Of a stretch of DNA of 64,000 nucleotides, positions 1 to 53,788 are shown piece after piece (the stretch's first letter is position 1; every line of letters begins with the position of its first letter). The stretch comes from Escherichia coli. GTDB taxonomy: Bacteria; Pseudomonadota; Gammaproteobacteria; Enterobacterales; Enterobacteriaceae. The position numbers were made by a program, and so were the translations under genes. Where the stretch lies: NCBI RefSeq assembly GCF_002854065.1, contig NZ_CP024147.1. One strand, written 5' to 3'. Below the pieces are notes generated by a model. The model was given only the letters and a program-made list of their open reading frames with translations, was not told where the DNA came from and did not search any database.

Positions 1-803
<803 letters not shown>

Positions 804-823
804 TCAATCGCTCAATGACCTGA

Positions 824-1345
<522 letters not shown>

Positions 1346-1513
1346 GGGTAGAAATTAATCGCAACGCGCAGATTGCGAGCTGCATTCCACGAAATTTGTA
1401 AGGTTGTGAAGATAGCGTTTTTCACCGGAATCAGGTTAACAAATCAGCGCTCTCTCTGTTGCTGAGCATCCGGAGTTATTCGATGGTGATACTCCAATTA
1501 CAGAGGATGTTTT

Positions 1514-1981
1514 ATGGACACTACCCTTCCCTTTCTAATTTTGTACGCTTGTTTATCAGCCCTACTTTTTTTCTGGGATGCAAAGCATGGCTTGTTACCT
1601 GACAGATTTACGTGCCCGTTACTCTGGTCAGGTCTTTTGTTCTATCAAGTTTGTCATCCTGATGGTTTAGCCGATGCGTTATGGGGGGCAATTATTGGTT
1701 ACGGCACATTCGCTGTCATTTACTGGGGGTATCGCATACTGCGCCATAAAGAAGGATTAGGCTATGGTGATGTGAAGTTTCTCGCCGCCCTTGGCGCCTG
1801 GCATTCATGGGCCTTCTTACCACGACTGGTTTTCCTTGCTGCCTCATTCGCTTGCGGAGCCGTAGTTATTGGTCTGCTCATGAGAGGAAAAGAATCATTA
1901 AAAAACCCGCTGCCTTTTGGGCCATTTCTGGCGGCTGCGGGTTTCGTTATAGGCTGGGATAGTTTGCTGATAGGCCGTTAA
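1514..1981 (+). CDS. gspO: Short A24-family prepilin peptidase-like membrane protein (155 aa)
   Basis: ORF track 155 aa with multiple hydrophobic segments and LLPD and [16 protein letters not shown] motifs typical of the prepilin peptidase aspartyl protease domain; RBS gagga upstream; lies between rpsJ and bfr where K-12 carries the gsp cluster ending in gspO. Symbol is by position and similarity only. Confidence 0.7.
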
Positions 1982-2454
1982 TCTTTAACTTTAATTTGTG
2001 ATTGCAGGTAATTTTGTAGGTCGATTTTACCGATGAGATCCAGTTCAGTTTCGAGCCAGTCGATATGACCTTCTTCATCAGCAAGGATCTCGATCATCAT
2101 ATCGCGGCTAACATAGTCATGAACGCTGTCGGCATATGCGATAGCCTCACGCAGATCCTTCGCGCCTTCCAGCTCTAATCGCAGGTCGGATTGCAGCATC
2201 TCTTCGACATCTTCACCAATCCCCAGTTTGCCTAAATCCTGTAAGTTGGGGACTCCTTCTAAAAACAAAATACGCTCGATATACTTATCAGCGTGTTTCA
2301 TCTCATCGATGGATTCATGGTATTCAACGTCATTGAGACGCATCAGCCCCCAGTTTTTAAACATCCGGGCATGGAGAAAATACTGATTGATTGCGACAAG
2401 CTCATTTCCCAATAGTTTATTGAGATAATTTATGATTTTAACATCACCTTTCAT
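1978..2454 (-). CDS. bfr: Bacterioferritin
   Basis: ORF track 158 aa [37 protein letters not shown]... Confidence 0.95.
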
Positions 2455-2526
2455 TTTATAGTCCCTCCGCTTCCACTATTAGAGCGTAGATGGGGCTAGC
2501 TGGTTGTCAAAAAATAAGCGTGGGCT

Positions 2527-2721
2527 TCAAGCAATCTCTTTAAATTCTGGCATCTGCATCAACTCGTCCTGCATCACTTCGCGCGCGGCGCGAATGCACT
2601 TACCACATTGATTTCCCACAGGAATAAACTTACGCAATTGTTGGAAAGATTGCGGATGAAACTGACGGACTGCCTGGCGAATTTTTTTGTCACTTACACC
2701 ATTACACAAACAAACGTACAT
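2527..2721 (-). CDS. bfd: Bacterioferritin-associated ferredoxin
   Basis: ORF track 64 aa MYVCLCNGVSDKKIRQAV... with CxC...CGKC [2Fe-2S] motif; directly upstream of bfr. Confidence 0.9.
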   Translation of the reverse strand: MYVCLCNGVSDKKIRQAVRQFHPQSFQQLRKFIPVGNQCGKCIRAAREVMQDELMQMPEFKEIA

Positions 2722-2852
2722 GATTGCTCCCGTTCAAATTCTGCGCAAAGTGTAAATGAGAATAGTTATGATTACAATAGCACAGTTTTATTTGCGCCAT
2801 AGTTCAGCGAACAAAATTACGACTAAATATTTCGAGCTCAAATTACGGGCAG

Positions 2853-2877
2853 CAAAAAGGGCGCCGAAGCGCCCTTT
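2853..2877 (-). terminator. Rho-independent terminator downstream of tufA
   Basis: GC stem agggcgc/gcgccct with cgaa loop, followed on the minus strand by a T run. Confidence 0.6.
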
Positions 2878-2903
2878 ACAATTCAAAACTAATTAACGTG
2901 TAA

Positions 2904-4145
<1,242 letters not shown>

Positions 4146-4158
4146 TTAACCCTTAGGC

Positions 4159-6285
<2,127 letters not shown>

Positions 6286-6369
6286 TTATCTTTTAGGCGT
6301 TCAATTTAAGTAGCCCAAAGCGGGCTGCTTACTGGAAGCGCCCGCCTGGTGACTAAAACTCCGAAGGGA

Positions 6370-6855
<486 letters not shown>

Positions 6856-6936
6856 TTAATTCAGGATTGTCCAAAACTCTACGAGTTTAGTTTGACATTT
6901 AAGTTAAAACGTTTGGCCTTACTTAACGGAGAACCA

Positions 6937-7414
<478 letters not shown>

Positions 7415-7436
7415 GAAATATACAACGATCCCGCCA

Positions 7437-7724
7437 TCACCAGGCCATCTGGCTGGAGTGCTTAACCGTAAGTCTGACGAAATCAGTATAGTCAATGGGA
7501 ATGATGTCATTCGAAATTTGACCAGTCAAACCGCGGGCAATAAGGTCTTCGTTCAGGGCATAGACCTTAATGGGGGCATTACGCAGACTTTCAAGGTAGC
7601 GGTTACCGTCAACTGCGGCAGTTACGCCATCTTGCAATAATAGCAGTTCGTCGCCTTCACTGAGCAGACGCAGCAGCGCAGCAAAATCCGTCAGCCAGGG
7701 TGAACGATGTAACGTGTGCAGCAT
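7437..7724 (-). CDS. tusB: Sulfurtransferase complex subunit TusB
   Basis: ORF track 95 aa; position after tusC/tusD and before rpsL. Confidence 0.9.
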
Positions 7725-7731
7725 AAACGCC

Positions 7732-8090
7732 TCAAAACCTCAAAATAACATCGTAGTTGGCGAGTTCGCGGCGTAAGGCATCTGCTTCGAGCGGCGTGGC
7801 TTCGACAACAAAGGGGGTCTGCGGATCTAACCCGCGTTCGCGCAGTGAAGCCGCACAAACCCAGCACTGTTCAATGTCGTACAGACCCAACAATTTAAAA
7901 GTGGCAATGTAATCACGCGCCAGCACTGCATCGGGCTTTTGTCCTGGCAGTAGCTGAAAAACGCCATCAGCAATAAAGAAGACGGCCAGCTCGTCAGTTA
8001 ACGCGGAAGTTGCCAGTAAAGCATCTAAACCTTCCCGCCCGGCAGCGGTACCATGAGGCACAGTAGAAAAAACAAACGCAATTCGTTTCA

Positions 8091-8091
<1 letters not shown>
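7732..8091 (-). CDS. tusC: Sulfurtransferase complex subunit TusC
   Basis: ORF track 119 aa; DsrF-like; 1-nt overlap with tusD. Confidence 0.9.
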
Positions 8092-9199
<1,108 letters not shown>

Positions 9200-9324
9200 G
9201 AAAAAAAACACTCCTTTTCAGGAGCCTGTCGTTAACTTTTCAGGGCAGGCTCATTAATGATGCGGGTAACTAAATTAATACAGCGGAGGTTCCGCTTTCC
9301 AGCACTAATTATATCCGGCCTGTA

Positions 9325-9356
9325 ATAAAAAAACCGCCGCCTGGTCAGGCGGCGGT
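9325..9356 (-). terminator. Rho-independent terminator downstream of fkpA
   Basis: Stem ccgccgcc/ggcggcgg followed on minus strand by T7 run. Confidence 0.7.
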
Positions 9357-9365
9357 TCTTAATGC

Positions 9366-10178
9366 TTATTTTTTAGCAGAATCTGCGGCTTTCGCATCAG
9401 CTTCCGGCTTTGCATCAGCCTTCGGCGCTGGTTTCACATCCAGCAGCTCTACGTCAAACACCAGGGTAGAATTCGGTGGGATCCCCGGAACACCCGCTTT
9501 GCCGTAAGCCAGTTCTGGTGGAATAACCAGTTTGATCTTACCGCCTTTCTTGATGTTCTTCAGACCTTCTGTCCAACCCGGGATAACACCGTCCAGACGG
9601 AAAGAAAGCGGTTCACCACGGGTGTAAGAGTTGTCGAACTCTTTACCGTCGATCAGCGTACCTTTGTAGTTCACTACAACAGTATCGCTGTCTTTCGGTG
9701 CTTCGCCTTTACCGGCTTCTACTACCTGATAAACCAGACCAGTTGAAGAGGTTTTCACACCTTTCTCTTTGGCAAATTTCTCGCGGTACTCTTTACCTTT
9801 TGCTTCGTTATCAGCCGCGTCTTTTTCCATCTTCGCCTGAGCAGAAGACTTCACGCGAGCTTCGAATGCTTGCAGAGTCTGTTCGATCTCTTGGTCGGAG
9901 AGTTTGCTCTTATCAGCAAATGCATCCTGAACACCAGCGATCAGCTGATCTTTATCCAGTTTGATGCCCAGTTTTTCTTGTTCTTTTAGAGAGTTTTCCA
10001 TGTAACGACCCAGCGAGGCACCCAGTGCATAAGCTGATTTCTGATCGTCATTTTTGAACGCTGCTTTGCTGTCAGCAGTTGTAGCAGGTTTTGCAGCTTC
10101 AGCAGCAAAAGTGATTGGTGCATGCAGGGCAACGGCCATTGTGGTCGCCAGCAGCGTTACTTTAAACAGTGATTTCAT
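9366..10178 (-). CDS. fkpA: Periplasmic FKBP-type peptidyl-prolyl isomerase
   Basis: ORF track 270 aa with signal peptide and FKBP domain. Confidence 0.93.
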   Translation of the reverse strand: MKSLFKVTLLATTMAVALHAPITFAAEAAKPATTADSKAAFKNDDQKSAYALGASLGRYMENSLKEQEKLGIKLDKDQLIAGVQDAFADKSKLSDQEIEQTLQAFEARVKSSAQAKMEKDAADNEAKGKEYREKFAKEKGVKTSSTGLVYQVVEAGKGEAPKDSDTVVVNYKGTLIDGKEFDNSYTRGEPLSFRLDGVIPGWTEGLKNIKKGGKIKLVIPPELAYGKAGVPGIPPNSTLVFDVELLDVKPAPKADAKPEADAKAADSAKK

Positions 10179-10398
10179 CCATATCTCCAGGATCGGGGCA
10201 TCTCACCCCAGGGTTAACTATTATCAGAAGGGTACTATAAAGCGTTGTCGAACAAATCTACATACAGACACGCCCTATTATCATCTATTTTCAGACTCTT
10301 TTTGTTTAAATTAGTTTCGATGACCGCGAAATGAGTGCTGTCTCGGGCAGCAAAGTTAAGTAGAATCCGCGGCGACCATTCGACAAAAGAGGTGAATC

Positions 10399-10617
10399 AT
10401 GCAGGATTTATCATTGGAAGCACGCCTGGCAGAGCTGGAGAGCCGACTGGCTTTTCAGGAAATCACCATTGAAGAACTGAACGTCACGGTGACCGCTCAT
10501 GAAATGGAGATGGCGAAACTGCGCGATCATCTGCGTCTGCTGACCGAGAAGTTAAAAGCCAGCCAGCCGTCGAACATCGCGTCGCAGGCTGAAGAAACGC
10601 CACCGCCACATTATTGA
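10399..10617 (+). CDS. slyX: Protein SlyX
   Basis: ORF track 72 aa [31 protein letters not shown]... Confidence 0.9.
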
Positions 10618-10622
10618 GGCGT

Positions 10623-10650
10623 AAAAAAAGCGGGGATTCCCCGCTTTTTT
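10623..10650. terminator. Bidirectional rho-independent terminator between slyX and slyD
   Basis: aaaaaaagcgggga-t-tccccgctttttt palindrome flanked by A run and T run. Confidence 0.7.
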
Positions 10651-10665
10651 GTCACTTTTTCGGTA

Positions 10666-11256
10666 TTAGTGGCAACCGCAACCGCCGTTACCTTTACCGC
10701 CACAGCAGCCTTCGCCACCGTGCTCATGACCGTGATCATGGCCATGACCACCGCAGCAACCGTCGTGGTCGTGATCGTGGTGATGATCGTGCGCACCGTG
10801 AACGTGGCCATGAGCCAGCTCTTCTTCAGTCGCTTCGCGAATCGCCACAACTTCAACGTTGAATTTCAGGTTCTGACCGGCCAGCATGTGGTTACCATCA
10901 ACCACGACGTGATCGTCTTCAACCGCAGTGATTTCAACCGGTACCGGACCCTGGTCGGTTTCAGCCAGGAAACGCATACCTACCTGCAGTTCATCAACGC
11001 CCATAAATACGTCTTTAGGCACACGTTGCACCAGGTTTTCGTCGTACTGACCGTAAGCGTCGTTCGCGCCAACAGCGACATCAAATTTGTCGCCAACTTC
11101 ATGACCTTCCAGCGCCGTTTCCAGGCCAGAGATCAGGGAACCGTGACCATGCAGGTAGTCCAGCGGCGCACTCACCGGAGACTCATCAACCAACACACCG
11201 TCTTCTGTACGTACCTGATAGGCCAGGCTGACCACCAGGTCTTTTGCTACTTTCAT
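10666..11256 (-). CDS. slyD: FKBP-type peptidyl-prolyl isomerase / metallochaperone SlyD
   Basis: ORF track 196 aa MKVAKDLVVSLAYQVRTEDGVLVDESPVSAPLDYLHGHGSLISGLE... with His/Cys/Gly-rich C-terminal tail. Confidence 0.95.
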   Translation of the reverse strand: MKVAKDLVVSLAYQVRTEDGVLVDESPVSAPLDYLHGHGSLISGLETALEGHEVGDKFDVAVGANDAYGQYDENLVQRVPKDVFMGVDELQVGMRFLAETDQGPVPVEITAVEDDHVVVDGNHMLAGQNLKFNVEVVAIREATEEELAHGHVHGAHDHHHDHDHDGCCGGHGHDHGHEHGGEGCCGGKGNGGCGCH

Positions 11257-11350
11257 GATATCTCCTGAGCATGGGAAGAATAGTGGCGCAGATTGTAGCG
11301 GAATTCTGCAGCCGTGTACTCACTAGCTTAAAAAAACTCGGCGCATATCG

Positions 11351-11551
11351 CTAGTCCGGATGAAAAATCCCGATCACTTGCTCATCTTTGCGAACGTGAT
11401 CGCGGGCTTCTTTGTCTGCTTCTCGCATCTGGTGTCCGCACTTAACGCATTCAACAATATCAATATTATTTTCGCGCCACATCGCCATTGAATCCTGCGC
11501 CTGACAGGCCGGGCATTTTGCGCCCGCAATAAAACGTTTTCGGATTGCCAT
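11351..11551 (-). CDS. yheV: Small zinc-ribbon protein YheV
   Basis: ORF track 66 aa with CPAC...CVKCGH motifs. Confidence 0.85.
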   Translation of the reverse strand: MAIRKRFIAGAKCPACQAQDSMAMWRENNIDIVECVKCGHQMREADKEARDHVRKDEQVIGIFHPD

Positions 11552-11560
11552 CTTTACCCT

Positions 11561-13366
11561 CTACTCAAATTCATCCCAGCCGTCCAGCTGGCGTCGTTCT
11601 TGTTGCATTTCACGCTGGAAAATCTCTTCCAGTTCGCGTCGGGCTTCCCTGGCGCGAGAAATTTGTACGGTATCGGCATGCATTGGGATGAGCTCTCGCA
11701 GCATCCGCATATCCAGGCGGCGAAAATGCAGTTGCGCCCGCTGTGCCTGATGCGGATGCATGCCAAGCGTGACCAGCGTCTTGCGCCCCAGCTCTAACGC
11801 ACTGGAGAATGTTTCACGGGAAAACTGCGTCACCCCTGCCTGTAATAACTCATGCGCTTCCACACGTCCGCGCGCTCGCGCAAGAATATGCAAATGCGGA
11901 AAGTGCTGCTGGCATATTTCCACCAGCTTCATGGTGTCTTCCGGCTCGTTACAGGTAATGACGATAGACTCAGCGGCCTCTGCACCCGCAGAACGTAAAA
12001 GATCGACCTGCGTGGCATCACCGTAATAAACTTTGTAGCCATATTTGCGCATCAGGTTAACGGCGCTGATATCCCGCTCCAGCACGGTAATGCGCATTTT
12101 ATTTGCCATCAGCAAACGACCAATCACCTGCCCAAAACGCCCGAAACCGACCACAATCACCTGCGGTTTATCATCATTGACCCACGGTTTTTCGTCTTCT
12201 TCTTCCGGTCCGTTAAACTGGCGGGATAGCCATTTATCCACCAGCTTCATCAGCAACGGCGTGGTCATCATGGAAAGCGTCACCGTCACCAGCAACAGCG
12301 CCATCTGGTCGCCCTGGAATAAGCGTTGTGAAGAAGCGGTAGAAAAGAGCACAAAGGCAAACTCGCCGCCCTGACTCAACACGCCCGCAAACTGCATCCG
12401 CTCTGAGCTACGCACGCCATACAATCGCGCCAGCAGATACAACACGAGAATTTTCACCGCCACCAGCACAACCACGCTTATCACTACCCACAACAGATGG
12501 GTATAAAGCACCCCGAGATTGAGCGACATGCCGACAGAGATAAAGAACAAACCGAGCAGCAACCCCTTAAACGGATCGATAGCCGTTTCCAGTTCATGGC
12601 GATATTCACTTTCCGCCAGCAGCACGCCTGCAATAAACGTACCGAGCGCCATCGACAGCCCCAACGCATCCATAAACAATGCGGAACCCAATACCAGCAG
12701 CAGCGTCGCGGCGGTGAACACTTCCCGCACGCCAGAAGCTGCAATAAAACGGAATACCGGACGCAATAAATAGCGCCCGCCAATCAGCATGCCGACAAAC
12801 GCCAGCACCTTCATGCCGATCTTCATCCAGTCGAAATGTTCGTCTGCCGAACCCGCCAGCAACGGCACTAACACCAGTGCCGGGATCACCGCCAGATCCT
12901 GAAACAGCAGTACCGAAAACCCGAGCTGCCCGGATTCGCTGCGATTCATCCCTTTCTCACGCATCAATTGCAACGCCATTGCGGTCGAAGACATCGCAAG
13001 GCCAATGCCACCGACCACCGCCGCCTGCCAGGCGAAATCCGTCAGCATCAATAATCCCGCCAGCAACGCCGCGCTTAACAGCACCTGTGCCGCGCCTACG
13101 CCAAAAATCGAACGCCGCAGTTGCCAAAGCTTGGAGGGATTCAACTCAAGGCCGATGATAAACATCAGGAACACCACGCCGAGTTCCGAAAAGTGGAGGA
13201 TCTCATCGACGTCGCTAATAAACCCCAGCCCCCACGGGCCAATTGCAATCCCTGCCAGCAAATATCCCAACACAGCGCCAATACCCAGCCGCGATGCCAA
13301 CGGCACCGCAGCCACCGCCGCGAAGAGAAACAGCACTCCTGCAAGTAAAAAATCGGAACCTTCCAT
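11561..13366 (-). CDS. kefB: Glutathione-regulated K+ efflux antiporter KefB
   Basis: ORF track 601 aa; multi-TM N-terminus plus C-terminal KTN/Rossmann domain ([11 protein letters not shown]). Confidence 0.95.
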
Positions 13367-13920
13367 CAGCGGCCTCCTGGAGACAGCGGATTTGCCAGCC
13401 AGTCACCGTAGGCTCTGGCGTGGCTCGCCAGCTCCTGTGCGCTTTGCCGTCTCGCCCAATAAATAATGATGGGACTTAACCAATGCATCCGGCACATGCC
13501 CGCCGCCAGTTCAAAGGGGCGCAGGACATCGCTCATCGGGTAGCGATTCAACGCGTCATAACGGTAAGCACTTTCCGGCTCGCCGGTGGTAATCACACTA
13601 CGCCAGTACTTTCCCGCCAGTTGGTTTCCTCCCGGCCCGCTGGCAAAACCACGGCTTAATACCCGGTCCAGCCACTCTTTCAGTAGCGCCGGGCAGCTAT
13701 AGGTATAAAGAGGATGCTGAAAGACAATCACCTCGTGCTCGCGCAGTAATGCCTGCTCACGGGGGATATCAATAAAAAAATCGGGATAGTGCGCGTAAAG
13801 GTCGTGCACGGTAACATTGCTGAGCTGCGTGGCCGGTTTAAGCAGTACCCGGTTTGCCACCGAGTCCTGAGATTCCGGATGGGCATACAGCAGCAAAACT
13901 TTCGCTGGCTGAGACATCAT
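13366..13920 (-). CDS. kefG: KefB ancillary protein KefG (NAD(P)H quinone oxidoreductase-like)
   Basis: ORF track 184 aa [27 protein letters not shown]...; 1-nt overlap with kefB. Confidence 0.9.
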
Positions 13921-14047
13921 CCCCCTCCCGGTATGGTTTTTGTGTATAGTCGCTGTTTTGGGCTACCATTGCGCCCGGTGCGGCAGCTCGCCCATACATT
14001 ACATTATCATAATGATAAGTTAACATAGTCTGAACATACGGCACCTT

Positions 14048-15961
14048 ATGATTGTTTTCTCCTCGTTACAAATTCGTCGCGGCGTGCGCGTCCTGCTGGA
14101 TAATGCCACCGCCACCATCAACCCCGGGCAGAAAGTCGGCCTGGTGGGTAAAAACGGCTGTGGTAAATCTACCCTGCTGGCATTGCTGAAAAATGAAATC
14201 AGCGCCGACGGCGGCAGCTACACCTTTCCGGGAAGCTGGCAACTGGCGTGGGTGAATCAGGAAACGCCGGCGTTACCGCAAGCGGCGCTGGAATATGTCA
14301 TTGACGGCGACCGTGAATATCGTCAACTGGAAGCGCAGCTACACGACGCCAACGAACGTAACGACGGGCACGCCATTGCGACCATTCATGGCAAGCTGGA
14401 TGCTATTGACGCATGGAGTATTCGCTCCCGTGCCGCCAGCCTGCTGCACGGCCTCGGTTTCAGCAATGAACAACTGGAGCGCCCGGTAAGTGATTTTTCC
14501 GGGGGCTGGCGTATGCGTCTTAACCTTGCCCAGGCGCTGATTTGCCGTTCAGACTTGCTGCTGCTCGACGAACCGACTAACCACCTCGATCTCGATGCCG
14601 TTATCTGGCTGGAAAAATGGCTGAAGAGCTATCAGGGCACGCTGATCCTGATCTCTCACGACCGCGACTTCCTCGATCCGATCGTCGATAAAATTATTCA
14701 TATCGAACAACAAAGCATGTTCGAGTACACCGGCAACTACAGTTCGTTTGAAGTACAGCGCGCCACCCGTCTGGCGCAGCAACAAGCGATGTACGAAAGC
14801 CAGCAGGAACGCGTAGCGCATCTGCAAAGTTATATCGACCGTTTCCGTGCCAAAGCCACCAAAGCGAAGCAGGCCCAGAGCCGCATTAAGATGCTCGAGC
14901 GTATGGAGCTGATTGCCCCGGCGCACGTCGACAATCCGTTCCGCTTTAGCTTCCGCGCGCCGGAAAGTCTGCCAAATCCGTTACTGAAGATGGAAAAGGT
15001 CAGCGCAGGCTATGGCGATCGCATTATTCTCGACTCGATTAAACTGAATCTGGTCCCCGGTTCGCGCATTGGTCTGTTAGGCCGCAACGGCGCGGGTAAA
15101 TCGACATTAATCAAACTGTTAGCCGGTGAACTTGCGCCAGTCAGTGGTGAAATAGGCCTGGCAAAAGGGATCAAGCTCGGCTACTTCGCCCAGCATCAAC
15201 TTGAATACCTGCGCGCCGACGAATCGCCTATTCAACATCTGGCACGTTTAGCGCCGCAGGAACTGGAGCAAAAACTGCGTGACTACCTCGGCGGCTTTGG
15301 TTTCCAGGGCGATAAAGTAACCGAAGAAACGCGCCGCTTCTCCGGTGGGGAAAAAGCCCGCCTGGTGCTGGCATTAATCGTCTGGCAGCGTCCGAATCTG
15401 CTGCTGCTCGACGAACCGACTAACCACCTTGACCTTGATATGCGTCAGGCACTCACCGAAGCATTAATCGAGTTTGAAGGCGCGCTGGTTGTCGTTTCGC
15501 ACGACCGTCATTTGCTGCGTTCCACCACTGACGACCTCTACCTGGTTCACGATCGTAAAGTCGAACCGTTCGACGGCGATCTGGAAGATTATCAACAGTG
15601 GTTGAGCGACGTACAAAAGCAGGAAAACCAGACCGACGAAGCGCCAAAAGAGAACGCGAACAGCGCCCAGGCACGTAAAGATCAGAAGCGTCGGGAAGCG
15701 GAGTTGCGTGCGCAAACCCAGCCACTGCGTAAAGAGATTGCCCGTCTGGAAAAAGAGATGGAGAAGCTGAACGCGCAACTGGCGCAGGCAGAAGAGAAAC
15801 TCGGCGACAGCGAACTGTATGACCAGAGCCGTAAAGCGGAGTTGACCGCCTGCCTGCAACAGCAAGCCAGCGCCAAATCCGGCCTGGAAGAGTGCGAAAT
15901 GGCATGGCTGGAAGCCCAGGAGCAGCTTGAGCAGATGTTGCTGGAAGGCCAAAGCAACTGA
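14048..15961 (+). CDS. yheS: ABC-F family ATPase (two ABC cassettes, no membrane domain)
   Basis: ORF track 637 aa with two Walker A motifs (GKNGCGKST, GRNGAGKST) and two LSGG signatures plus coiled-coil C-terminus. Confidence 0.9.
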   Translation: MIVFSSLQIRRGVRVLLDNATATINPGQKVGLVGKNGCGKSTLLALLKNEISADGGSYTFPGSWQLAWVNQETPALPQAALEYVIDGDREYRQLEAQLHDANERNDGHAIATIHGKLDAIDAWSIRSRAASLLHGLGFSNEQLERPVSDFSGGWRMRLNLAQALICRSDLLLLDEPTNHLDLDAVIWLEKWLKSYQGTLILISHDRDFLDPIVDKIIHIEQQSMFEYTGNYSSFEVQRATRLAQQQAMYESQQERVAHLQSYIDRFRAKATKAKQAQSRIKMLERMELIAPAHVDNPFRFSFRAPESLPNPLLKMEKVSAGYGDRIILDSIKLNLVPGSRIGLLGRNGAGKSTLIKLLAGELAPVSGEIGLAKGIKLGYFAQHQLEYLRADESPIQHLARLAPQELEQKLRDYLGGFGFQGDKVTEETRRFSGGEKARLVLALIVWQRPNLLLLDEPTNHLDLDMRQALTEALIEFEGALVVVSHDRHLLRSTTDDLYLVHDRKVEPFDGDLEDYQQWLSDVQKQENQTDEAPKENANSAQARKDQKRREAELRAQTQPLRKEIARLEKEMEKLNAQLAQAEEKLGDSELYDQSRKAELTACLQQQASAKSGLEECEMAWLEAQEQLEQMLLEGQSN

Positions 15962-16983
15962 TGGCGCAGATAACGACGACCGATGCCAATGAATTCAGCA
16001 GCAGTGCTGAATTCACCCCTATGCGCGGCTTTAGCAATTGTCATCTGCAAACCATGCTGCCGCGTCTGTTTCGTCGCAAGGTGAAATTCACCCCGTACTG
16101 GCAGCGGCTGGAGTTGCCCGACGGCGATTTTGTCGATCTCGCGTGGAGTGAAGCCCCAGCACAGGCGCGGCATAAACCGCGTTTAGTGGTATTTCACGGG
16201 CTGGAAGGCAGTCTCAATAGCCCTTACGCCCACGGTCTGGTTGAGGCGGCGCAAAAGCGCGGCTGGCTGGGCGTGGTGATGCATTTTCGCGGATGCAGCG
16301 GTGAACCAAACCGTATGCACCGCATTTACCATTCGGGCGAAACCGAAGACGCCAGTTGGTTTTTACGCTGGCTGCAACGCGAGTTTGGTCATGCGCCAAC
16401 GGCTACCGTCGGCTATTCGCTCGGCGGTAATATGCTGGCCTGTTTGCTGGCAAAAGAAGGCAATGATCTCCCGGTTGATGCGGCGGTGATTGTCTCTGCG
16501 CCGTTTATGCTGGAGGCCTGTAGTTACCATATGGAAAAGGGCTTTTCCCGCGTTTATCAGCGTTACTTGCTGAACCTGTTAAAAGCCAATGCCGCACGCA
16601 AGCTGGCTGCCTACCCCGGAACGCTGCCGATAAATCTCGCGCAATTAAAATCGGTACGTCGCATCCGTGAATTTGACGATCTAATCACCGCCAGGATTCA
16701 CGGCTACGCTGACGCTATCGACTATTATCGTCAGTGTAGCGCCATGACGATGCTGAACCGGATCGCCAAACCGACGCTGATTATTCACGCCAAAGACGAT
16801 CCGTTTATGGATCATCAGGTGATCCCGAAACCGGAAAGTCTTCCCCCGCAGGTGGAGTATCAACTGACTGAACATGGCGGTCATGTTGGCTTTATTGGCG
16901 GTACATTACTTCATCCGCAAATGTGGCTGGAGTCACGCATTCCTGACTGGTTAACAACGTATCTGGAGGCGAAATCATGTTGA
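15961..16983 (+). CDS. yheT: Alpha/beta-hydrolase fold protein YheT
   Basis: ORF track 340 aa with GYSLGG nucleophile elbow motif. Confidence 0.85.
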
Positions 16984-17195
16984 TTCCGTGGCAAGACCTC
17001 TCCCCCGAAACGCTGGAAAATTTAATTGAAAGCTTTGTGTTACGTGAAGGCACCGATTATGGTGAACATGAGCGTACACTTGAACAGAAAGTCGCCGACG
17101 TCAAACGCCAGCTACAGTGCGGAGAAGCGGTGCTGGTATGGTCGGAGCTGCACGAAACGGTCAATATCATGCCGCGCAGTCAGTTTCGCGAATAA
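16977..17195 (+). CDS. yheU: UPF0270 protein YheU
   Basis: ORF track 72 aa [32 protein letters not shown]... Confidence 0.85.
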
Positions 17196-17248
17196 CCTGC
17201 AACCGTCGGCGGACGAGATAATAATGATAGCTAAGTCATGGAGTTACT

Positions 17249-18118
17249 ATGTCTGCCAAACATCCGGTCATTGCGGTAACAGGATCCAGCGGCGCGGGGA
17301 CCACCACCACCAGCCTCGCGTTTCGTAAAATATTCGCGCAGTTAAATCTGCATGCAGCCGAGGTGGAAGGTGACAGTTTTCACCGTTACACCCGCCCGGA
17401 AATGGACATGGCGATCCGCAAAGCGCGCGACGCCGGGCGGCATATCAGCTACTTCGGCCCCGAAGCGAACGACTTTGGCCTGCTGGAACAAACCTTCATT
17501 GAATATGGTCAGAGCGGCAAAGGGAAATCTCGCAAATATCTGCATACCTACGACGAAGCCGTACCCTGGAATCAGGTACCGGGAACATTCACCCCCTGGC
17601 AACCTTTACCAGAACCCACTGATGTACTGTTTTATGAAGGTTTACACGGCGGCGTAGTCACGCCACAGCATAACGTTGCGCAGCATGTGGACTTACTGGT
17701 CGGCGTGGTGCCTATCGTTAACCTTGAGTGGATTCAAAAACTGATCCGCGACACCAGCGAGCGCGGGCACTCACGAGAAGCAGTGATGGACTCAGTAGTG
17801 CGTTCAATGGAAGACTATATCAACTACATCACACCGCAGTTTTCCCGCACCCATCTTAACTTCCAGCGCGTTCCCACCGTCGACACTTCAAACCCGTTCG
17901 CGGCAAAAGGTATCCCGTCGCTGGATGAAAGCTTTGTGGTGATCCATTTTCGTAATCTGGAAGGGATCGATTTCCCCTGGCTGCTGGCGATGTTGCAAGG
18001 CTCATTCATTTCCCACATCAATACGTTAGTGGTGCCCGGCGGCAAAATGGGTCTGGCAATGGAATTAATTATGCTGCCGCTGGTGCAACGATTGATGGAA
18101 GGAAAGAAAATCGAGTAA
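17249..18118 (+). CDS. prkB: Phosphoribulokinase homologue
   Basis: ORF track 289 aa with P-loop VIAVTGSSGAGTTT. Confidence 0.9.
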   Translation: MSAKHPVIAVTGSSGAGTTTTSLAFRKIFAQLNLHAAEVEGDSFHRYTRPEMDMAIRKARDAGRHISYFGPEANDFGLLEQTFIEYGQSGKGKSRKYLHTYDEAVPWNQVPGTFTPWQPLPEPTDVLFYEGLHGGVVTPQHNVAQHVDLLVGVVPIVNLEWIQKLIRDTSERGHSREAVMDSVVRSMEDYINYITPQFSRTHLNFQRVPTVDTSNPFAAKGIPSLDESFVVIHFRNLEGIDFPWLLAMLQGSFISHINTLVVPGGKMGLAMELIMLPLVQRLMEGKKIE

Positions 18119-18130
18119 CTCTGCTATTAC

Positions 18131-18152
18131 GCCGGATAAAATACTATCCGGC
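18131..18152. terminator. Palindromic stem-loop between convergent prkB and yhfA (weak U-tract)
   Basis: gccggata-aaatac-tatccggc perfect inverted repeat. Confidence 0.35.
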
Positions 18153-18172
18153 TTCACAACGGGATAGTTAAA

Positions 18173-18577
18173 TCACGCGGCAACCACTTCATACGAGTGA
18201 GTAATATTCACCGCTTTTTCCAGCATCAACGCCACTGAACAATATTTCTCAGCAGAGAGATCAACCGCACGCGCAACCGCTGCGTCTTTCAGGTCGCGAC
18301 CGGTGACGATAAAATGCAGATTAATGTGCGTAAACAGGCGTGGTGCCTCTTCGCGGCGTTCAGAGGTCAATTTTACTTCACAATCGACCACATCCTGACG
18401 CCCTTTTTGCAGGATCGAAACCACATCGATGGCACTGCAACCACCCGCCGCCATCAACACCATTTCCATCGGACTTGGTGCTTTATCGCCTGAATTGCCG
18501 TCCATTAAAATCTGGTGACCAGAGGCAGATTCGCCCAGAAAAGTTAACCCTTCGACCCACTTCACTCGCGCTTGCAT
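18173..18577 (-). CDS. yhfA: OsmC-family protein YhfA
   Basis: ORF track 134 aa MQARVKWVEGLTFLGESASGHQILMDG... Confidence 0.85.
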   Translation of the reverse strand: MQARVKWVEGLTFLGESASGHQILMDGNSGDKAPSPMEMVLMAAGGCSAIDVVSILQKGRQDVVDCEVKLTSERREEAPRLFTHINLHFIVTGRDLKDAAVARAVDLSAEKYCSVALMLEKAVNITHSYEVVAA

Positions 18578-18878
18578 TTTTGCTACTCCACTGCGTCAAT
18601 TTTCCTGACAGAGTACGCGTACTAACCAAATCGCGCAACGGAAGGCGACCTGGGTCATGCTGAAGCGAGACACCAGGAGACACAAAGCGAAAGCTATGCT
18701 AAAACAGTCAGGATGCTACAGTAATACATTGATGTACTGCATGTATGCAAAGGACGTCACATTACCGTGCAGTACAGTTGATAGCCCCTTCCCAGGTAGC
18801 GGGAAGCATATTTCGGCAATCCAGAGACAGCGGCGTTATCTGGCTCTGGAGAAAGCTTATAACAGAGGATAACCGCGC
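18578..18878 (+). promoter_or_regulatory. crp promoter / long 5' leader region
   Basis: 300-bp non-coding interval upstream of crp, divergent from yhfA; individual sites not resolved here. Confidence 0.4.
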
Positions 18879-19511
18879 ATGGTGCTTGGCAAACCGCAAA
18901 CAGACCCGACTCTCGAATGGTTCTTGTCTCATTGCCACATTCATAAGTACCCATCCAAGAGCACGCTTATTCACCAGGGTGAAAAAGCGGAAACGCTGTA
19001 CTACATCGTTAAAGGCTCTGTGGCAGTGCTGATCAAAGACGAAGAGGGTAAAGAAATGATCCTCTCCTATCTGAATCAGGGTGATTTTATTGGCGAACTG
19101 GGCCTGTTTGAAGAGGGCCAGGAACGTAGCGCATGGGTACGTGCGAAAACCGCCTGTGAAGTGGCTGAAATTTCGTACAAAAAATTTCGCCAATTGATTC
19201 AGGTAAACCCGGACATTCTGATGCGTCTGTCTGCACAGATGGCGCGTCGTCTGCAAGTCACTTCAGAGAAAGTGGGCAACCTGGCGTTCCTCGACGTGAC
19301 GGGCCGCATTGCACAGACTCTGCTGAATCTGGCAAAACAACCAGACGCTATGACTCACCCGGACGGTATGCAAATCAAAATTACCCGTCAGGAAATCGGT
19401 CAGATTGTCGGCTGTTCTCGTGAAACCGTGGGACGCATTCTGAAGATGCTTGAAGATCAGAACCTGATCTCCGCACACGGTAAAACCATCGTCGTTTACG
19501 GCACTCGTTAA
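18879..19511 (+). CDS. crp: cAMP receptor protein CRP
   Basis: ORF track 210 aa [51 protein letters not shown]...; no deviation noticed from the canonical sequence as remembered. Confidence 0.97.
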
Positions 19512-32132: not shown

Positions 32133-32141
32133 CCTGTATCG
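32133..32141. repeat. Left copy of 9-bp IS1 target-site duplication (CCTGTATCG)
   Basis: Identical 9-mer directly abuts both IS1 termini. Confidence 0.9.
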
Positions 32142-32156
32142 GGTAATGACTCCAAC

Positions 32157-32660
32157 TTATTGATAGTGTTTTATGTTCAGATAATGCCCGATGACTTTGT
32201 CATGCAGCTCCACCGATTTTGAGAACGACAGCGACTTCCGTCCCAGCCGTGCCAGGTGCTGCCTCAGATTCAGGTTATGCCGCTCAATTCGCTGCGTATA
32301 TCGCTTGCTGATTACGTGCAGCTTTCCCTTCAGGCGGGATTCATACAGCGGCCAGCCATCCGTCATCCATATCACCACGTCAAAGGGTGACAGCAGGCTC
32401 ATAAGACGCCCCAGCGTCGCCATAGTGCGTTCACCGAATACGTGCGCAACAACCGTCTTCCGGAGCCTGTCATACGCGTAAAACAGCCAGCGCTGGCGCG
32501 ATTTAGCCCCGACGTATCCCCACTGTTCGTCCATTTCCGCGCAGACGATGACGTCACTGCCCGGCTGTATGCGCGAGGTTACCGACTGCGGCCTGAGTTT
32601 TTTAAATGGCGGAAAATCGTGTTGAGGCCAACGCCCATAATGCGGGCGGTTGCCCGGCAT
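32157..32660 (-). CDS. insB: IS1 transposase InsB (expressed as InsAB' fusion by -1 frameshift)
   Basis: ORF track 167 aa [16 protein letters not shown]...KHYQ matches IS1 InsB. Confidence 0.93.
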
Positions 32661-32854
32661 CCAACGCCATTCATGGCCATATCAATGATTTTCTGGTGCG
32701 TACCGGGTTGAGAAGCGGTGTAAGTGAACTGCAGTTGCCATGTTTTACGGCAGTGAGAGCAGAGATAGCGCTGATGTCCGGCAGTGCTTTTGCCGTTACG
32801 CACCACCCCGTCAGTAGCTGAACAGGAGGGACAGCTGATAGAAACAGAAGCCAC
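32579..32854 (-). CDS. insA: IS1 InsA (transposition inhibitor / N-terminal part of transposase)
   Basis: ORF track 91 aa [42 protein letters not shown]...; A6C slippery motif (plus gtttttt 32597-32603) in the insA/insB overlap. Confidence 0.93.
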
Positions 32855-32909
32855 TGGAGCACCTCAAAAACACCATCATACACTAAATCAGTAAGTTGGC
32901 AGCATCACC

Positions 32910-32918
32910 CCTGTATCG
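32910..32918. repeat. Right copy of 9-bp IS1 target-site duplication (CCTGTATCG)
   Basis: Identical to 32133-32141. Confidence 0.9.
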
Positions 32919-36043: not shown

Positions 36044-36922
36044 TTATTGGAAAAATTGAGAGGGATTTTCACGTAACATCACATCCACATCGGCCTGACT
36101 GAATCCTGACTGGCGCAATTGCGGAATAAAGGTGGTTAGTAAATAGTCATAGCCATAACCACCGTTGGCTTTTAAATGGGAGCGGCGCGTAATATCCATC
36201 GACAGCATGACGCGGTTCAGCAACCCACGGTCGCGTAGCGCATGAAGCATCGCAATACGCTTTTCGTCCGGGTAGTAACTGTTCTTACCAATGGTGTCGA
36301 ACTGCACATACGCGCCGAGATCGATCATCTTCAAAATGTTGTCGAGGTTGTCTTTCAGATCGCAGTGACCAACGGTGACGCGCGAAAGATCAACTCCGTG
36401 GGCTTGCAACAAAGCCAGTTGCTCCAGCCCCATCGTGCTGAACGACGTATGCGTGGAGATCGGGCGTCCGGTCTGGTTATGTGCCAGCGCGGCGGCAATA
36501 AATACCTTCTCTTCCAGCGGCGTAATCTTCCCTTCGCTGGAGCCGATCTCCGCGATGATCCCGGCTTTCAGTTCCGTGCCATCGATACCCTGCTCAATTT
36601 CATCGACCATCTCCTGCGCCAGTTCCTGCACGCTGCGGGTCGCCACATGTTCCGGGAAAAACGCGTCCTGGTAATAACCGGTACAGGCCACCACGTTGAT
36701 CCCCGTCTCGCGCATTACATCGAGCATAAATTGCGCATTGCGCCCCATGTAACGGTTGGTCATCTCAATCACATTACGCACGCCCCGGGCCATCAGGTCG
36801 TTCATCTCCTGGCAAATGAACGAATACTGATCAAGGCGGCAGTCCACGTTGTTTTTAAAGCCGGAGAGATCAATATGCAGATGCTCATGGGCGAGGGTGT
36901 AACCCGTCGGATCAAAACTCAT
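36044..36922 (-). CDS. php: Phosphotriesterase homology protein (amidohydrolase superfamily)
   Basis: ORF track 292 aa [32 protein letters not shown]... with metal-binding HxH motif. Confidence 0.9.
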
Positions 36923-38145
36923 AGGGTGTCTCCTGCAAACCGGAGGGAGGAAAGAAAAGAGCGACCATTTTGTGGCGGTGGCGCACGGAAAAATTCACAC
37001 ACGGTAGCCCCCACATCAGAAAGCGTGGTGCGCACACCGATCTGCGTAGTGACCAGCCCTTGCTGATAAACCAGCACTGGCACCACTTCACGGGTATGGT
37101 GGCTGTGACCAATGGTCGGATCGTTACCGTGATCCGCCATCACGACCAGGCAATCATCTGGCTGCATCGCCTCGACAAGCCGGGCAAGATTACGGTCAAC
37201 GACCTGCAAACGTTCGGCATAACTTGCGACGTCTTCTGCGTGACCAGCGAGGTCGGTTTCCTGAATGTTGGTGCAAATAAACGCTGTCTGATGGGTGATA
37301 AATTCGTCGAGGGTGATATCCATAATCCGCTGGCTATCCACCAGATTTTGCCAGCTCACGCCATAAGGATTGTTGACGATATCTGCCACCTTACCCACCA
37401 GCACGGTTGGCACGCCTGCTTCATACAGTTTTTGTGGCACCTGCACTTTTTCATCGACGCCATAGCCCATATGCACGACCTGGAAACCGTTGTCATAAGC
37501 GCCAGAACGCGGCGCATTAATACCAATAAAGCGCCCTTCTTTGCTTTCTGCGGCATCGAGAATACGCTGACTGTCGGTTAACAGGCCGCCAAATGTAATG
37601 ACCCGACCGACCTGTACCTGGTCACGCACGATACGACCAATTTTGATTGCGTCGTCAAAAGAGATCACAGAGAGATTGGCGGTAATGTTATAGACTTGGC
37701 CTAAATCCGCCTCGAGATTATCGCCAATCGCAACCGCCTGATTGACTCACAGAAATTGCAGTTCATCGCCACGGCGCTCCACCTGCCAACCGGCGGATAC
37801 TAATGCCTGCTCAACACGGTCAATCACATCGCGAAAGGGCATCCGCAGCGGCGGTAACGGGCGCGTGCCTAAAATTTCCTGATGCCCCATAAAGGTATCG
37901 CCACCTTCATGTTGCAGCTCTGCCACACCCCAGGTTGCGGAGTCTGACGGCTGCATATCACCTGGCGCATAACCCAATGCGTTGATTAGCCCCAGCTTCT
38001 CCAGCGTTGGTAGCTGCAAATGCGGCAGCTGGCTCAGGATGTGACCACAGGTATTCGCTCCGGCATCTTGCGGGCGCACCAGCGTGACATCTTTCATTGC
38101 ACCTACGCCAAAGCTATCAATCACTAACACCACAAATCGCGCCAT
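36919..38145 (-). pseudogene. yhfW: yhfW (phosphopentomutase-like metalloenzyme) interrupted by an in-frame TGA at 37747-37749
   Basis: ORF track gives a 132-aa N-terminal piece (37747-38145) and a 249-aa C-terminal piece (36919-37668); manual translation shows both are in the same frame with 26 sense codons between them, so a single TGA splits a 408-codon gene. Confidence 0.8.
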
Positions 38146-50952: not shown

Positions 50953-51071
50953 TGTGATGATCTCCTTATCACCCGTCACTCTGACGGGTATATCAATGCG
51001 TCTGGCTTGCCTTTATACTACCGCGCGTTTGTTTATAAACTGCCCAAATGAAACTAAATGGGAAATTTCCA

Positions 51072-53624: not shown

Positions 53625-53626
53625 TT

Positions 53627-53655
53627 AAAAAGGCGCTTCGGCGCCTTTTCAGTTT
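53627..53655 (+). terminator. Rho-independent terminator after mrcA
   Basis: aaaaaggcgc-ttcg-gcgcctttt palindrome. Confidence 0.65.
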
Positions 53656-53678
53656 GCTGACAAAGTGCACTTGTTTAT

Positions 53679-53707
53679 GCCGGATACGGGTGAACGCGTT
53701 ATCCGGC
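53679..53707. repeat. REP-like palindromic element
   Basis: gccggatacgggtgaacgcgttatccggc resembles REP consensus; between mrcA and nudE. Confidence 0.5.
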
Positions 53708-53788
53708 TAACAAAATCGTGAAAACTCAATATATTGCAGGAACCCCATAAGCCTGATAAGCGTTGTGCATCAGGCAAACTTCACGCAT

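What the first reader, a model, noticed from the sequence alone, without database searches (positions are those of the whole stretch)
17249..18118. Phosphoribulokinase homologue prkB in a non-autotroph, beside three genes of unclear role (yheS, yheT, yheU)
A P-loop phosphoribulokinase-like gene with no obvious partner enzymes sits in a block with an ABC-F ATPase, an alpha/beta hydrolase and a small UPF0270 protein. The physiological substrate of PrkB in E. coli is, to my knowledge, not established.
Basis: partly seen in the sequence, partly recalled or inferred. Interest (0 to 1): 0.2.

Follow-up and report, generated by a model that had tools for sequence, protein, structure and literature searches.

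The report
E. coli orphan phosphoribulokinase gene prkB
This is the already annotated E. coli gene prkB, an intact and very strongly conserved copy of the Calvin-cycle enzyme phosphoribulokinase in bacteria that have no Calvin cycle; its cellular job is still unknown, so this is a real but long-catalogued open question, not a new object.

Summary
The ORF at 17249-18118 (+) is E. coli prkB, exactly as described. It is a single-copy core gene, present in 5,424 of 5,426 complete genomes. It is a full-length bacterial-type phosphoribulokinase: 50% identical to the solved R. sphaeroides enzyme, with a model TM-score of 0.90.

Every catalytic and ribulose-5-phosphate-binding residue I checked is invariant in 82 orthologues from Enterobacterales, Vibrionaceae, Aeromonas and Alteromonadales. 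These orthologues form one clade whose tree follows the species tree. Purifying selection is strong (dN/dS 0.015-0.03, lower than argD or pabA). In the decaying genome of Ca. Pantoea persica, prkB stays intact while yheS, yheT, yheU and yhfA are broken.

The yheT-yheU-prkB order is widely conserved but not obligatory. The yheS-yheT junction is specific to Escherichia.

Two positions invariant in 122 cbb-type enzymes are changed throughout this clade (H69 to Y, R187 to S). Published controls show that native PrkB feeds no measurable RuBP to RuBisCO expressed in E. coli.

No paper I could search defines its substrate or role. Best reading: a competent, tightly restrained Ru5P kinase with a RuBisCO-independent role (confidence 0.5). 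The gene is known, the question is open, and interest is modest.

The parts
17249..18118 (+). prkB coding sequence (289 aa plus stop), a bacterial-type (class I) phosphoribulokinase orthologue
   Evidence: ORF. RefSeq annotation. PF00485 E 1.3e-76 and NF011997 at 524.7 bits against a cut-off of 362. PDB 1a7j E 7.8e-94 over the full length. AlphaFold model pLDDT 90, TM-score 0.90 to 1a7j.
17282..17308 (+). Codons 12-20, the Walker A / P-loop GSSGAGTTT
   Evidence: Identical to the R. sphaeroides PRK P-loop except S19T. G12, S13, S14, G15 and G17 are invariant in 82 orthologues.
17240..17243 (+). Shine-Dalgarno GGAG, 5 nt before the ATG
   Evidence: Read from the sequence. TCA(G/T)GGAGT is the only conserved block in the yheU-prkB spacer across 10 Enterobacteriaceae genera.
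17196..17248 (+). 53-nt yheU-prkB spacer with no conserved promoter or terminator
   Evidence: The spacer is not conserved apart from the ribosome-binding site. Its fold is no better than shuffles, z 0.12. No promoter-like site was called there. In other genera the gap ranges from 28 to 327 nt.
16977..17195 (+). yheU (UPF0270, 72 aa), the most consistently linked upstream neighbour
   Evidence: PF06794 E 1.1e-35. PDB 1y0n, a protein of unknown function. It lies directly upstream of prkB on the same strand in 55 of 81 loci, and Pfam also finds it in Shewanella.
15961..16983 (+). yheT (alpha/beta hydrolase, 340 aa); overlaps the yheU start by 7 nt
   Evidence: PF00561 E 6e-41 and NF008218. It lies upstream on the same strand in 57 of 81 loci. 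No solved relative was found by sequence.
14048..15961 (+). yheS (ABC-F ATPase); adjacent here but not a conserved partner
   Evidence: NF007921 and the ABC-F families. It abuts yheT only in E. coli and E. albertii; elsewhere it is 125 nt to 6.6 kb away or absent from the flank. It acts on ribosomes.
18131..18152 (.). 8-bp GC-rich hairpin GCCGGATA-AAATAC-TATCCGGC between the convergent stops of prkB and yhfA, with no U tract on either strand
   Evidence: Folds: -16 kcal/mol, z -4.3 (+ strand) and -20.4 kcal/mol, z -4.9 (- strand). Sequence read.
18173..18577 (-). yhfA (OsmC family), the convergent downstream neighbour
   Evidence: PF02566 and NF008009. It is convergent within 1.3 kb of prkB in 56 of 81 loci.

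Best explanation
prkB encodes a catalytically competent bacterial-type (class I, CbbP-like) P-loop sugar-phosphate kinase. It most likely still transfers the gamma-phosphate of ATP to C1 of D-ribulose 5-phosphate, giving ribulose 1,5-bisphosphate (RuBP).

Shown here:
- The fold, the P-loop, the acidic catalytic residues, the lid Lys/Arg residues and the phosphate-binding His/Arg/Tyr residues are all retained.
- The gene has been inherited vertically and kept under strong purifying selection across Enterobacterales, Vibrionaceae, Aeromonadales and Alteromonadales. From general knowledge, these organisms have no RuBisCO.
- Retention of prkB does not depend on yheS, yheT, yheU or yhfA.

Inferred:
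- The product serves a RuBisCO-independent purpose. It could be a regulated drain on, or signal of, the pentose-phosphate pool, or an intermediate of an undescribed route.
- Flux is normally kept very low, because E. coli cannot dispose of RuBP.
- prkB is probably translated from a transcript that starts upstream, in or before yheT-yheU.
For: Family and fold:
- The NF011997 equivalog scores 524.7 bits against a cut-off of 362, and PF00485 matches.
- PrkB is 50% identical to R. sphaeroides PRK with a single one-residue gap, and 1a7j matches at E 7.8e-94.
- The AlphaFold model has pLDDT 90 and a TM-score of 0.90 (rmsd 2.0 A) to 1a7j. The next 19 PDB hits are all PRKs.

Active site:
- D42, H45, R49, H99, E130, H133, K164, R167, D168, R172 and R185 are identical to the R. 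sphaeroides residues.
- The same residues are invariant in all 82 orthologues.
- 92 positions are conserved and identical between this clade and 122 cbb-type PRKs.

Selection:
- dN/dS is 0.015-0.032, below argD, pabA, yheS, yheT and yheU.
- prkB is a single-copy core gene, present in 5,424 of 5,426 genomes.
- The clade is monophyletic and its tree follows the species tree.
- prkB is intact in Ca. Pantoea persica while 8 of its 10 neighbours are broken.

Independence from neighbours:
- prkB stands without yheT and yheU in Idiomarina, Colwellia, Pseudoalteromonas, Alishewanella and Rheinheimera.
Against: - No enzyme assay of E. coli PrkB was found.
- RuBP is reported to be a dead end in E. coli that arrests growth (PMC4475311).
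- In that study, a strain with active RuBisCO but an inactivated heterologous PRK made 13C-3PGA only at control level. Native PrkB therefore supplied no measurable RuBP under those conditions.
- Two positions invariant in 122 cbb-type PRKs are changed in all 82 clade members: H69 to Y68, and lid-helix R187 to S186. This could mean altered substrate or nucleotide handling.
- No RuBP-consuming enzyme is known in these organisms (general knowledge).
- Residue roles other than K165 rest on my memory of the Miziorko-laboratory papers. Only their titles could be checked.
Confidence: 0.5

Rival explanations
1. Substrate shift. The heterotroph-clade enzyme keeps the PRK chemistry and the phosphate-binding pocket, but phosphorylates a different phosphorylated acceptor, for example another pentose or heptose phosphate. 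It therefore does not make RuBP in vivo.
For: - Y68 and S186 are fixed in all 82 clade members, where 122 cbb-type PRKs have H69 and R187.
- The other class I representatives and a cyanobacterial PRK also have Arg at the R187 position.
- Native PrkB gives no detectable RuBP flux to RuBisCO in E. coli.
- RuBP is toxic and a dead end in E. coli.
- The family also contains nucleoside and pantothenate kinases with the same fold.
Against: - All residues assigned to Ru5P binding and catalysis are invariant.
- The protein passes the PRK equivalog cut-off, and scores far below the cut-offs for uridine kinase (27.5 against 180 bits) and plant-type PRK (49.1 against 236).
- R185, next to S186, is invariant in the clade and could replace the lost Arg.
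- The negative RuBisCO control could equally reflect low expression or allosteric inhibition.
Confidence: 0.3
2. Functional module. PrkB works only together with YheT (hydrolase) and YheU, with or without YheS, as steps of one pathway.
For: - yheU lies directly upstream on the same strand in 55 of 81 loci, and yheT in 57 of 81. These loci span Enterobacterales, Vibrionaceae, Aeromonas and Shewanella.
- yheT and yheU overlap by 7 nt.
- The spacer before prkB has no conserved promoter or terminator.
- Ousalem et al. treat prkB as co-cistronic with yheS, yheT and yheU.
Against: - prkB is retained without yheT and yheU in at least five Alteromonadales genera.
- In Ca. Pantoea persica, yheS, yheT and yheU are pseudogenes while prkB is intact.
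- yheS abuts yheT only in Escherichia, and it is a ribosome-acting ABC-F protein.
- prkB evolves 2-5 times more slowly than yheT and yheU.
Confidence: 0.12
3. Evolutionary relic. prkB is a left-over of an ancestral Calvin-cycle cluster with no present function.
For: - No RuBisCO partner is present.
- rpe and gph, homologues of cbbE and cbbZ, lie in the same conserved chromosomal region.
- No phenotype has been reported in the literature I could search.
Against: - dN/dS is 0.015-0.032.
- 110 of 289 residues are invariant across four orders.
- The gene is present in 5,424 of 5,426 E. coli genomes.
- It is intact in a decaying symbiont genome.
Confidence: 0.02

Closest known systems
Bacterial-type (class I, octameric) phosphoribulokinase CbbP/PrkA of Rhodobacter (Cereibacter) sphaeroides, PDB 1A7J
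   Same: The two proteins are the same length. They are 50% identical with a single one-residue gap. They share the same P-loop and the same catalytic and Ru5P-site residues. The model has a TM-score of 0.90 to 1a7j. PrkB passes the same NCBIfam equivalog.
   Different: - There is no RuBisCO or cbb operon next to prkB. A typical member, Oleispirillum, has form II RuBisCO directly upstream and a LysR regulator gene nearby.
- The host clade is heterotrophic.
- Y68 and S186 replace the invariant H69 and R187.
- In E. coli the three arginines I recall as the NADH allosteric site are K220, H233 and H256. They vary within the clade.
- Activity, oligomeric state and effectors are untested.
Plant/cyanobacterial-type (dimeric, redox-regulated) PRK, e.g. 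PDB 6H7G, 6KEV, 6HZK
   Same: It shares the Pfam family, the P-loop kinase fold and the reaction. Foldseek probability is 1.00.
   Different: Identity is only 18-22% and TM-scores are 0.53-0.62. PrkB scores 49 bits against the 236-bit cut-off of the plant/cyanobacterial-type NCBIfam model. Sequence matches to these chains cover only part of the protein.
Archaeal PRK of Methanospirillum hungatei (reductive hexulose-phosphate pathway), PDB 5B3F
   Same: It is a precedent for a PRK outside the classical Calvin cycle, and it has the same fold.
   Different: It still works with a bona fide RuBisCO. It is dimeric, about 18% identical to PrkB in the Foldseek alignment, and forms a separate clade.
Uridine-cytidine kinase (Udk/UCK2), the other half of Pfam PF00485
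   Same: It shares the domain family and the P-loop plus lid architecture.
   Different: PrkB scores 27.5 bits against a cut-off of 180 for uridine kinase. TM-scores are 0.40-0.51. PrkB also has the PRK-specific C-terminal domain.

Membership tests
Bacterial-type (class I) phosphoribulokinase | Sequence membership: passes the curated family model over its full length | tested here: met
   NF011997 equivalog at 524.7 bits against a cut-off of 362, residues 1-288 of 289. PF00485 at 257 bits against a cut-off of 22.
Bacterial-type (class I) phosphoribulokinase | Fold of R. sphaeroides PRK (P-loop kinase core plus lid plus C-terminal domain) | tested here: met
   The AlphaFold model has pLDDT 90 and pTM 0.88. 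Its best PDB match is 1a7j, with TM-score 0.90/0.93 and rmsd 2.0 A over 283 columns.
Bacterial-type (class I) phosphoribulokinase | Walker A P-loop and acidic catalytic residues (D42, E131, D169 in R. sphaeroides numbering) | tested here: met
   G12-T20, D42, E130 and D168 are present and invariant in 82 orthologues. The residue roles come from my knowledge of the Miziorko-laboratory work.
Bacterial-type (class I) phosphoribulokinase | Ru5P-binding and lid basic residues (H45, R49, H100, K165, R168, R173) | tested here: met
   H45, R49, H99, K164, R167 and R172 are present and invariant. K165 is named as catalytic in a paper title listed.
Bacterial-type (class I) phosphoribulokinase | Lid-helix Arg187 and His69, invariant in cbb-type enzymes | tested here: not met
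   All 82 clade members have S186 and Y68, against R187 and H69 in 122 of 122 cbb-type sequences.
Bacterial-type (class I) phosphoribulokinase | ATP:Ru5P 1-phosphotransferase activity | not testable with these tools
   No assay of E. coli PrkB was found in the searchable literature.
Bacterial-type (class I) phosphoribulokinase | Octameric assembly with NADH activation and AMP inhibition | not testable with these tools
   The R. sphaeroides enzyme is octameric and allosteric. The recalled allosteric Arg trio is K/H/H in E. coli and varies within the clade: position 233 is R in 48 and H in 34, and position 256 is R in 44.
Calvin-Benson-Bassham (cbb) gene system | PRK encoded with, or in a genome with, RuBisCO and under CbbR control | tested here: not met
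   No RuBisCO or cbb regulator is annotated in window positions 1-50,777; 50,778-64,000 were not checked. The 81 loci show E. coli-like synteny instead. The Oleispirillum comparator has RuBisCO directly upstream. RuBisCO and Prk have to be added to E. coli to build the cycle. Whole genomes of the other taxa were not scanned.
Uridine/cytidine kinase | Passes the uridine kinase equivalog model | tested here: not met
   27.5 bits against a cut-off of 180, and 22.7 against 220.

The most novel reading that the evidence does not exclude
RuBP, or a closely related sugar bisphosphate made by PrkB, has a RuBisCO-independent physiological use that is conserved from E. coli to Vibrio, Shewanella and Idiomarina. 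It could be an undescribed branch of central pentose-phosphate metabolism or a regulatory metabolite.

One concrete but untested possibility is cleavage of RuBP by an aldolase of the FucA type (the enzyme that cleaves D-ribulose 1-phosphate) into DHAP plus phosphoglycolaldehyde. That product could be oxidised to 2-phosphoglycolate, which would link PrkB to the nearby Gph.
Probability: 0.3. Interest if true: 0.6.

Novelty: already known. Interest (0 to 1): 0.3.

Why it matters
PRK is usually treated as a marker of autotrophy. [quoted passage not shown] Synthetic-autotrophy work adds Prk to E. coli as a non-native reaction.

Yet a whole radiation of heterotrophic Gammaproteobacteria, E. coli included, keeps a PRK orthologue under tighter constraint than several biosynthetic genes. 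This has two consequences.

- Metagenomic surveys that count prkB as evidence of CO2 fixation will over-call autotrophy.
- A piece of E. coli central carbon metabolism or its regulation is probably still missing.

The question can be answered with simple experiments.

Tried and rejected
- **CRP control.** prkB lies beside crp, but a scan for the CRP consensus gave 28 matches against 26.5 expected by chance. None lies in a sensible position before prkB. I make no claim.
- **An own promoter in the yheU-prkB spacer.** The scanner called none, and the spacer is unconserved except for the ribosome-binding site.
- **Loss of the NADH allosteric site as a clade feature.** Rejected. H233 and H256 are specific to the E. 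coli lineage, and Arg is kept at these positions in about half of the clade.
- **A conserved partner gene outside the yheT-yheU synteny.** Neighbours in Alteromonadales differ by genus: ribosomal alpha operon, ApbE, RlmJ-like, SpeD-like, or YjjX-like plus HAD in Pseudoalteromonas. No common partner emerged.
- **Reading the Miziorko papers to verify residue roles.** They are not held in the library.
- **Locating the TadA-edited site of the reported prkB antisense RNA.** A strict search for an anticodon-arm geometry found nothing. Four minus-strand UACG sites exist, and none could be singled out.
- **Names for the 50%-cluster representatives.** Mostly unavailable.
- **The search on YheT, YheU and ABHD.** It gave nothing useful.

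Full report
**Observation.** The window is E. coli chromosome. The stretch 16000-19500 is found at 95% identity or more in 5,425 of 5,426 complete genomes. An ATG-to-TAA ORF of 289 codons lies at exactly 17249-18118 on the + strand and is annotated prkB, phosphoribulokinase. The layout is kefB and kefG (minus strand), then yheS 14048-15961, yheT 15961-16983, yheU 16977-17195, a 53-nt spacer, prkB, then convergent yhfA 18173-18577 (OsmC family), then crp 18879-19511.

**What the protein is.** PrkB matches Pfam PF00485 at E 1.3e-76. It scores 524.7 bits against the NCBIfam phosphoribulokinase equivalog NF011997, whose cut-off is 362. It scores far below the cut-offs of the plant/cyanobacterial-type PRK model (49 against 236 bits) and of uridine kinase (27.5 against 180 bits). 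Its closest solved relative is R. sphaeroides PRK, PDB 1A7J, at E 7.8e-94 over the whole length. A global alignment gives 50% identity with a single one-residue gap. An AlphaFold model (pLDDT 90, pTM 0.88) superposes on 1a7j with TM-score 0.90 and rmsd 2.0 A. The next 19 PDB hits are all PRKs, followed by uridine-cytidine and pantothenate kinases.

**Active site.** The following are identical to the R. sphaeroides residues: the P-loop (G12-T20), D42, H45, R49, H99, E130, H133, K164, R167, D168, R172 and R185. The catalytic role of K165 and the existence of studies on the invariant lid arginines, the basic Ru5P-binding residues, the P-loop Ser/Thr and a mobile-loop His are documented by paper titles in the reference list of Kono et al. 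2017. The roles of the other individual residues come from my memory of those papers, which the library does not hold. Three arginines that I recall as the NADH allosteric site (R221, R234, R257) are K220, H233 and H256 in E. coli.

**Distribution and evolution.** Orthologues in Enterobacterales are 82-97% identical. A scan of one genome per species returned at least 599 loci. The best 80 are all Enterobacterales, Aeromonas, Vibrionaceae, Shewanella, Colwellia, Pseudoalteromonas, Idiomarina, Alishewanella, Rheinheimera and relatives, at 68-99% identity. From general knowledge these are heterotrophs; I did not scan their genomes for RuBisCO.

- In 82 orthologues, 110 of 289 positions are invariant, including every catalytic and Ru5P-site residue listed above.
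- The allosteric-site positions vary inside the clade (position 233 is R in 48 and H in 34; position 256 is R in 44). The E. coli state is therefore lineage-specific and not a clade character.
- A neighbour-joining tree puts all these sequences in one clade whose branching follows the species tree. The R. sphaeroides enzyme and the other representatives fall outside it.
- Against Citrobacter, Enterobacter and Pluralibacter, dN/dS of prkB is 0.015-0.032. This is lower than argD (0.042-0.070), pabA, yheS, yheT and yheU; only crp is lower. dS is near saturation, so the ratios are rough, but dN alone gives the same ranking.
- prkB is a single-copy gene in 5,424 of 5,426 E. coli genomes.
- In the draft genome of Ca. 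Pantoea persica, kefB, kefG, yheS, yheT, yheU, yhfA, yhfK and argD are interrupted by stops or split into pieces. prkB (289 aa, no stop), crp and pabA are intact.

The gene is therefore not a relic.

**Differences from cbb-type enzymes.** Compared with 122 mostly alphaproteobacterial PRKs, 92 positions are conserved and identical and 14 discriminate the two groups. Two of the 14 also differ from the other class I representatives and from a cyanobacterial PRK: Y68 for H69, and S186 for R187. S186 lies in the second lid helix (residues 176-193 of the model). The adjacent R185 is invariant in the clade but variable elsewhere. I could not measure distances to the active site, because model coordinates are not exposed.

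**Genomic context.** Counts over the 81 loci are.

- yheU lies directly upstream on the same strand in 55, at a gap of 28-327 nt.
- yheT lies upstream in 57.
- yhfA is convergent downstream in 56.
- crp lies within 3 kb in 59.

Shewanella also has a UPF0270 gene before prkB. By contrast, yheS abuts yheT only in E. coli and E. albertii. Elsewhere the gap is 125 nt to 6.6 kb, or yheS is not in the flank; in Photorhabdus, other genes occupy its place. In Idiomarina, Colwellia, Pseudoalteromonas, Alishewanella and Rheinheimera, prkB stands without yheT and yheU, and its neighbours differ by genus. A typical cbb-type relative (Oleispirillum) has form II RuBisCO immediately upstream and a LysR regulator gene nearby. 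Two other representatives, of unknown organisms, have no RuBisCO within 7 kb, so orphan PRKs may exist elsewhere too.

**Expression signals.** The only conserved element in the yheU-prkB spacer is the Shine-Dalgarno block. The spacer has no significant structure (z 0.12) and no promoter-like site. This fits co-transcription with yheT-yheU, as Ousalem et al. assume. CRP-consensus matches are at chance level. Codon adaptation is middling: 0.34, similar to argD at 0.37. Downstream, an 8-bp GC-rich hairpin at 18131-18152 (z -4.3 and -4.9) lacks a U tract on both strands.

**Literature.** Ten full-text searches found no paper that defines a substrate or role for E. coli PrkB. Mentions are incidental: an operon remark, an antisense RNA 'prkB-as' edited by TadA, a differential-expression list and a Salmonella proteome list.

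Two published statements bear on function. First, Gong et al. 2015 report that RuBP cannot be metabolised by E. coli and arrests growth. In their strain with active RuBisCO but an inactivated heterologous PRK, 13C-3PGA stayed at control level, so native PrkB gave no measurable RuBP under those conditions. Second, Gleizer et al. 2019 add Prk to the E. coli network as a missing reaction. A 2023 review states that PRK occurs exclusively in photosynthetic organisms and methanogens. The library omits most subscription journals, so an older biochemical report cannot be excluded.

**Mechanism.**

- Most likely (confidence 0.5): PrkB is a competent Ru5P kinase that makes RuBP at low, tightly restrained flux for a RuBisCO-independent purpose. 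The chemistry is inferred from full conservation of the catalytic machinery. The restraint is inferred from RuBP toxicity and the negative RuBisCO control. The purpose is unknown.
- Main rival (0.3): the clade has shifted to another phosphorylated acceptor, as the fixed H69Y and R187S changes and the lack of RuBP flux could suggest.
- A strict functional module with YheT and YheU (0.12) is weakened by the genera, and the decaying symbiont genome, that keep prkB alone.
- A functionless relic (0.02) is excluded by the selection data.

**Comparison and verdict.** PrkB works like, and by sequence and fold is a member of, the bacterial-type PRK family. It fails two tests: association with the cbb system, and two otherwise invariant residues. 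Activity, oligomeric state and allostery could not be tested. The gene itself is already known and named, and its orphan status is a known unknown. What this analysis adds:

- the breadth and strength of its conservation in heterotrophs;
- its independence from yheS, yheT and yheU;
- two diagnostic substitutions;
- a set of simple decisive experiments.

Interest is modest (0.3).

Noticed in passing
window 41832-43260 (gph 41832-42590, rpe 42583-43260, both minus strand): The dam-rpe-gph-trpS cluster lies in the same window. rpe and gph are the housekeeping counterparts of the Calvin-operon genes cbbE and cbbZ, so three cbb-like genes (counting prkB) sit within 25 kb. In Vibrionaceae, Idiomarina, Rosenbergiella and Aliagarivorans, rpe-gph lies only about 8-10 kb from prkB. 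This may be plain regional synteny or the trace of an ancestral cbb cluster.
   Followed up: partly
window 32142-32909: A 768-bp insertion is flanked by a 9-bp direct duplication, CCTGTATCG (32133-32141 and 32910-32918), between cysG and yhfL. It is absent from strain CUWW06. From memory, its end sequence GGTAATGACTCCAACTTATTGATAGTG is that of IS1.
   Followed up: partly
window 17249-18172, minus strand: A 2026 mBio paper lists a TadA-dependent A-to-I editing site in an antisense RNA called 'prkB-as'. The hairpin between prkB and yhfA has no U tract, so read-through from yhfA could produce that RNA. Four minus-strand UACG sites exist (A at 17953, 17655, 17562 and 17326). The one at 17953 has the loop UUACGAA, like the tRNA-Arg2 anticodon loop. 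The true site was not identified.
   Followed up: partly
L018 (Candidatus Pantoea persica), 1-16000: This is a decaying region. kefB, kefG, yheS, yheT, yheU, yhfA, yhfK and argD all carry stops or are split into separate pieces, while prkB, crp and pabA are intact. Sequencing errors in this draft assembly cannot be excluded.
   Followed up: partly
L073, L074, L077, L078 (Pseudoalteromonas), about 10965-12450: In four Pseudoalteromonas species, prkB is followed on the same strand by an NTPase_I-T (YjjX-like) gene and a HAD-family hydrolase gene. A HAD phosphatase next to prkB could be a product phosphatase, but the linkage holds only within this genus.
   Followed up: partly
window 36919-38145 (yhfW): The window copy of yhfW (phosphopentomutase-like) is 100% identical to the CUWW06 copy, which RefSeq marks as a pseudogene with an internal stop. 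It sits in the uncharacterised yhfS-yhfZ cluster.
   Followed up: no
window 18578-18878 (yhfA-crp divergent region): yhfA starts 301 nt from crp on the opposite strand. From memory, a divergent CRP-activated transcript from this region was described as a regulator of crp transcription, and yhfA would be its coding part. The known-looking CRP site TGCAAAGGACGTCACA lies at 18746-18761.
   Followed up: no
L085 (TARA metagenome contig) and L083: Two class I PRK representatives from uncultured organisms (P0126, P0133) have no RuBisCO within 7 kb. They sit among housekeeping genes: leuS and lptE for P0126, and tpiA and truA-like genes for P0133. Orphan PRKs may therefore exist outside the E. coli clade.
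   Followed up: no
E. coli genome collection (H20 NZ_AP043965.1; one plasmid record): One E. coli genome has prkB truncated to 53% of its length, annotated there as 'nucleoside/nucleotide kinase family protein'. One record places the region on a replicon labelled plasmid.
   Followed up: no
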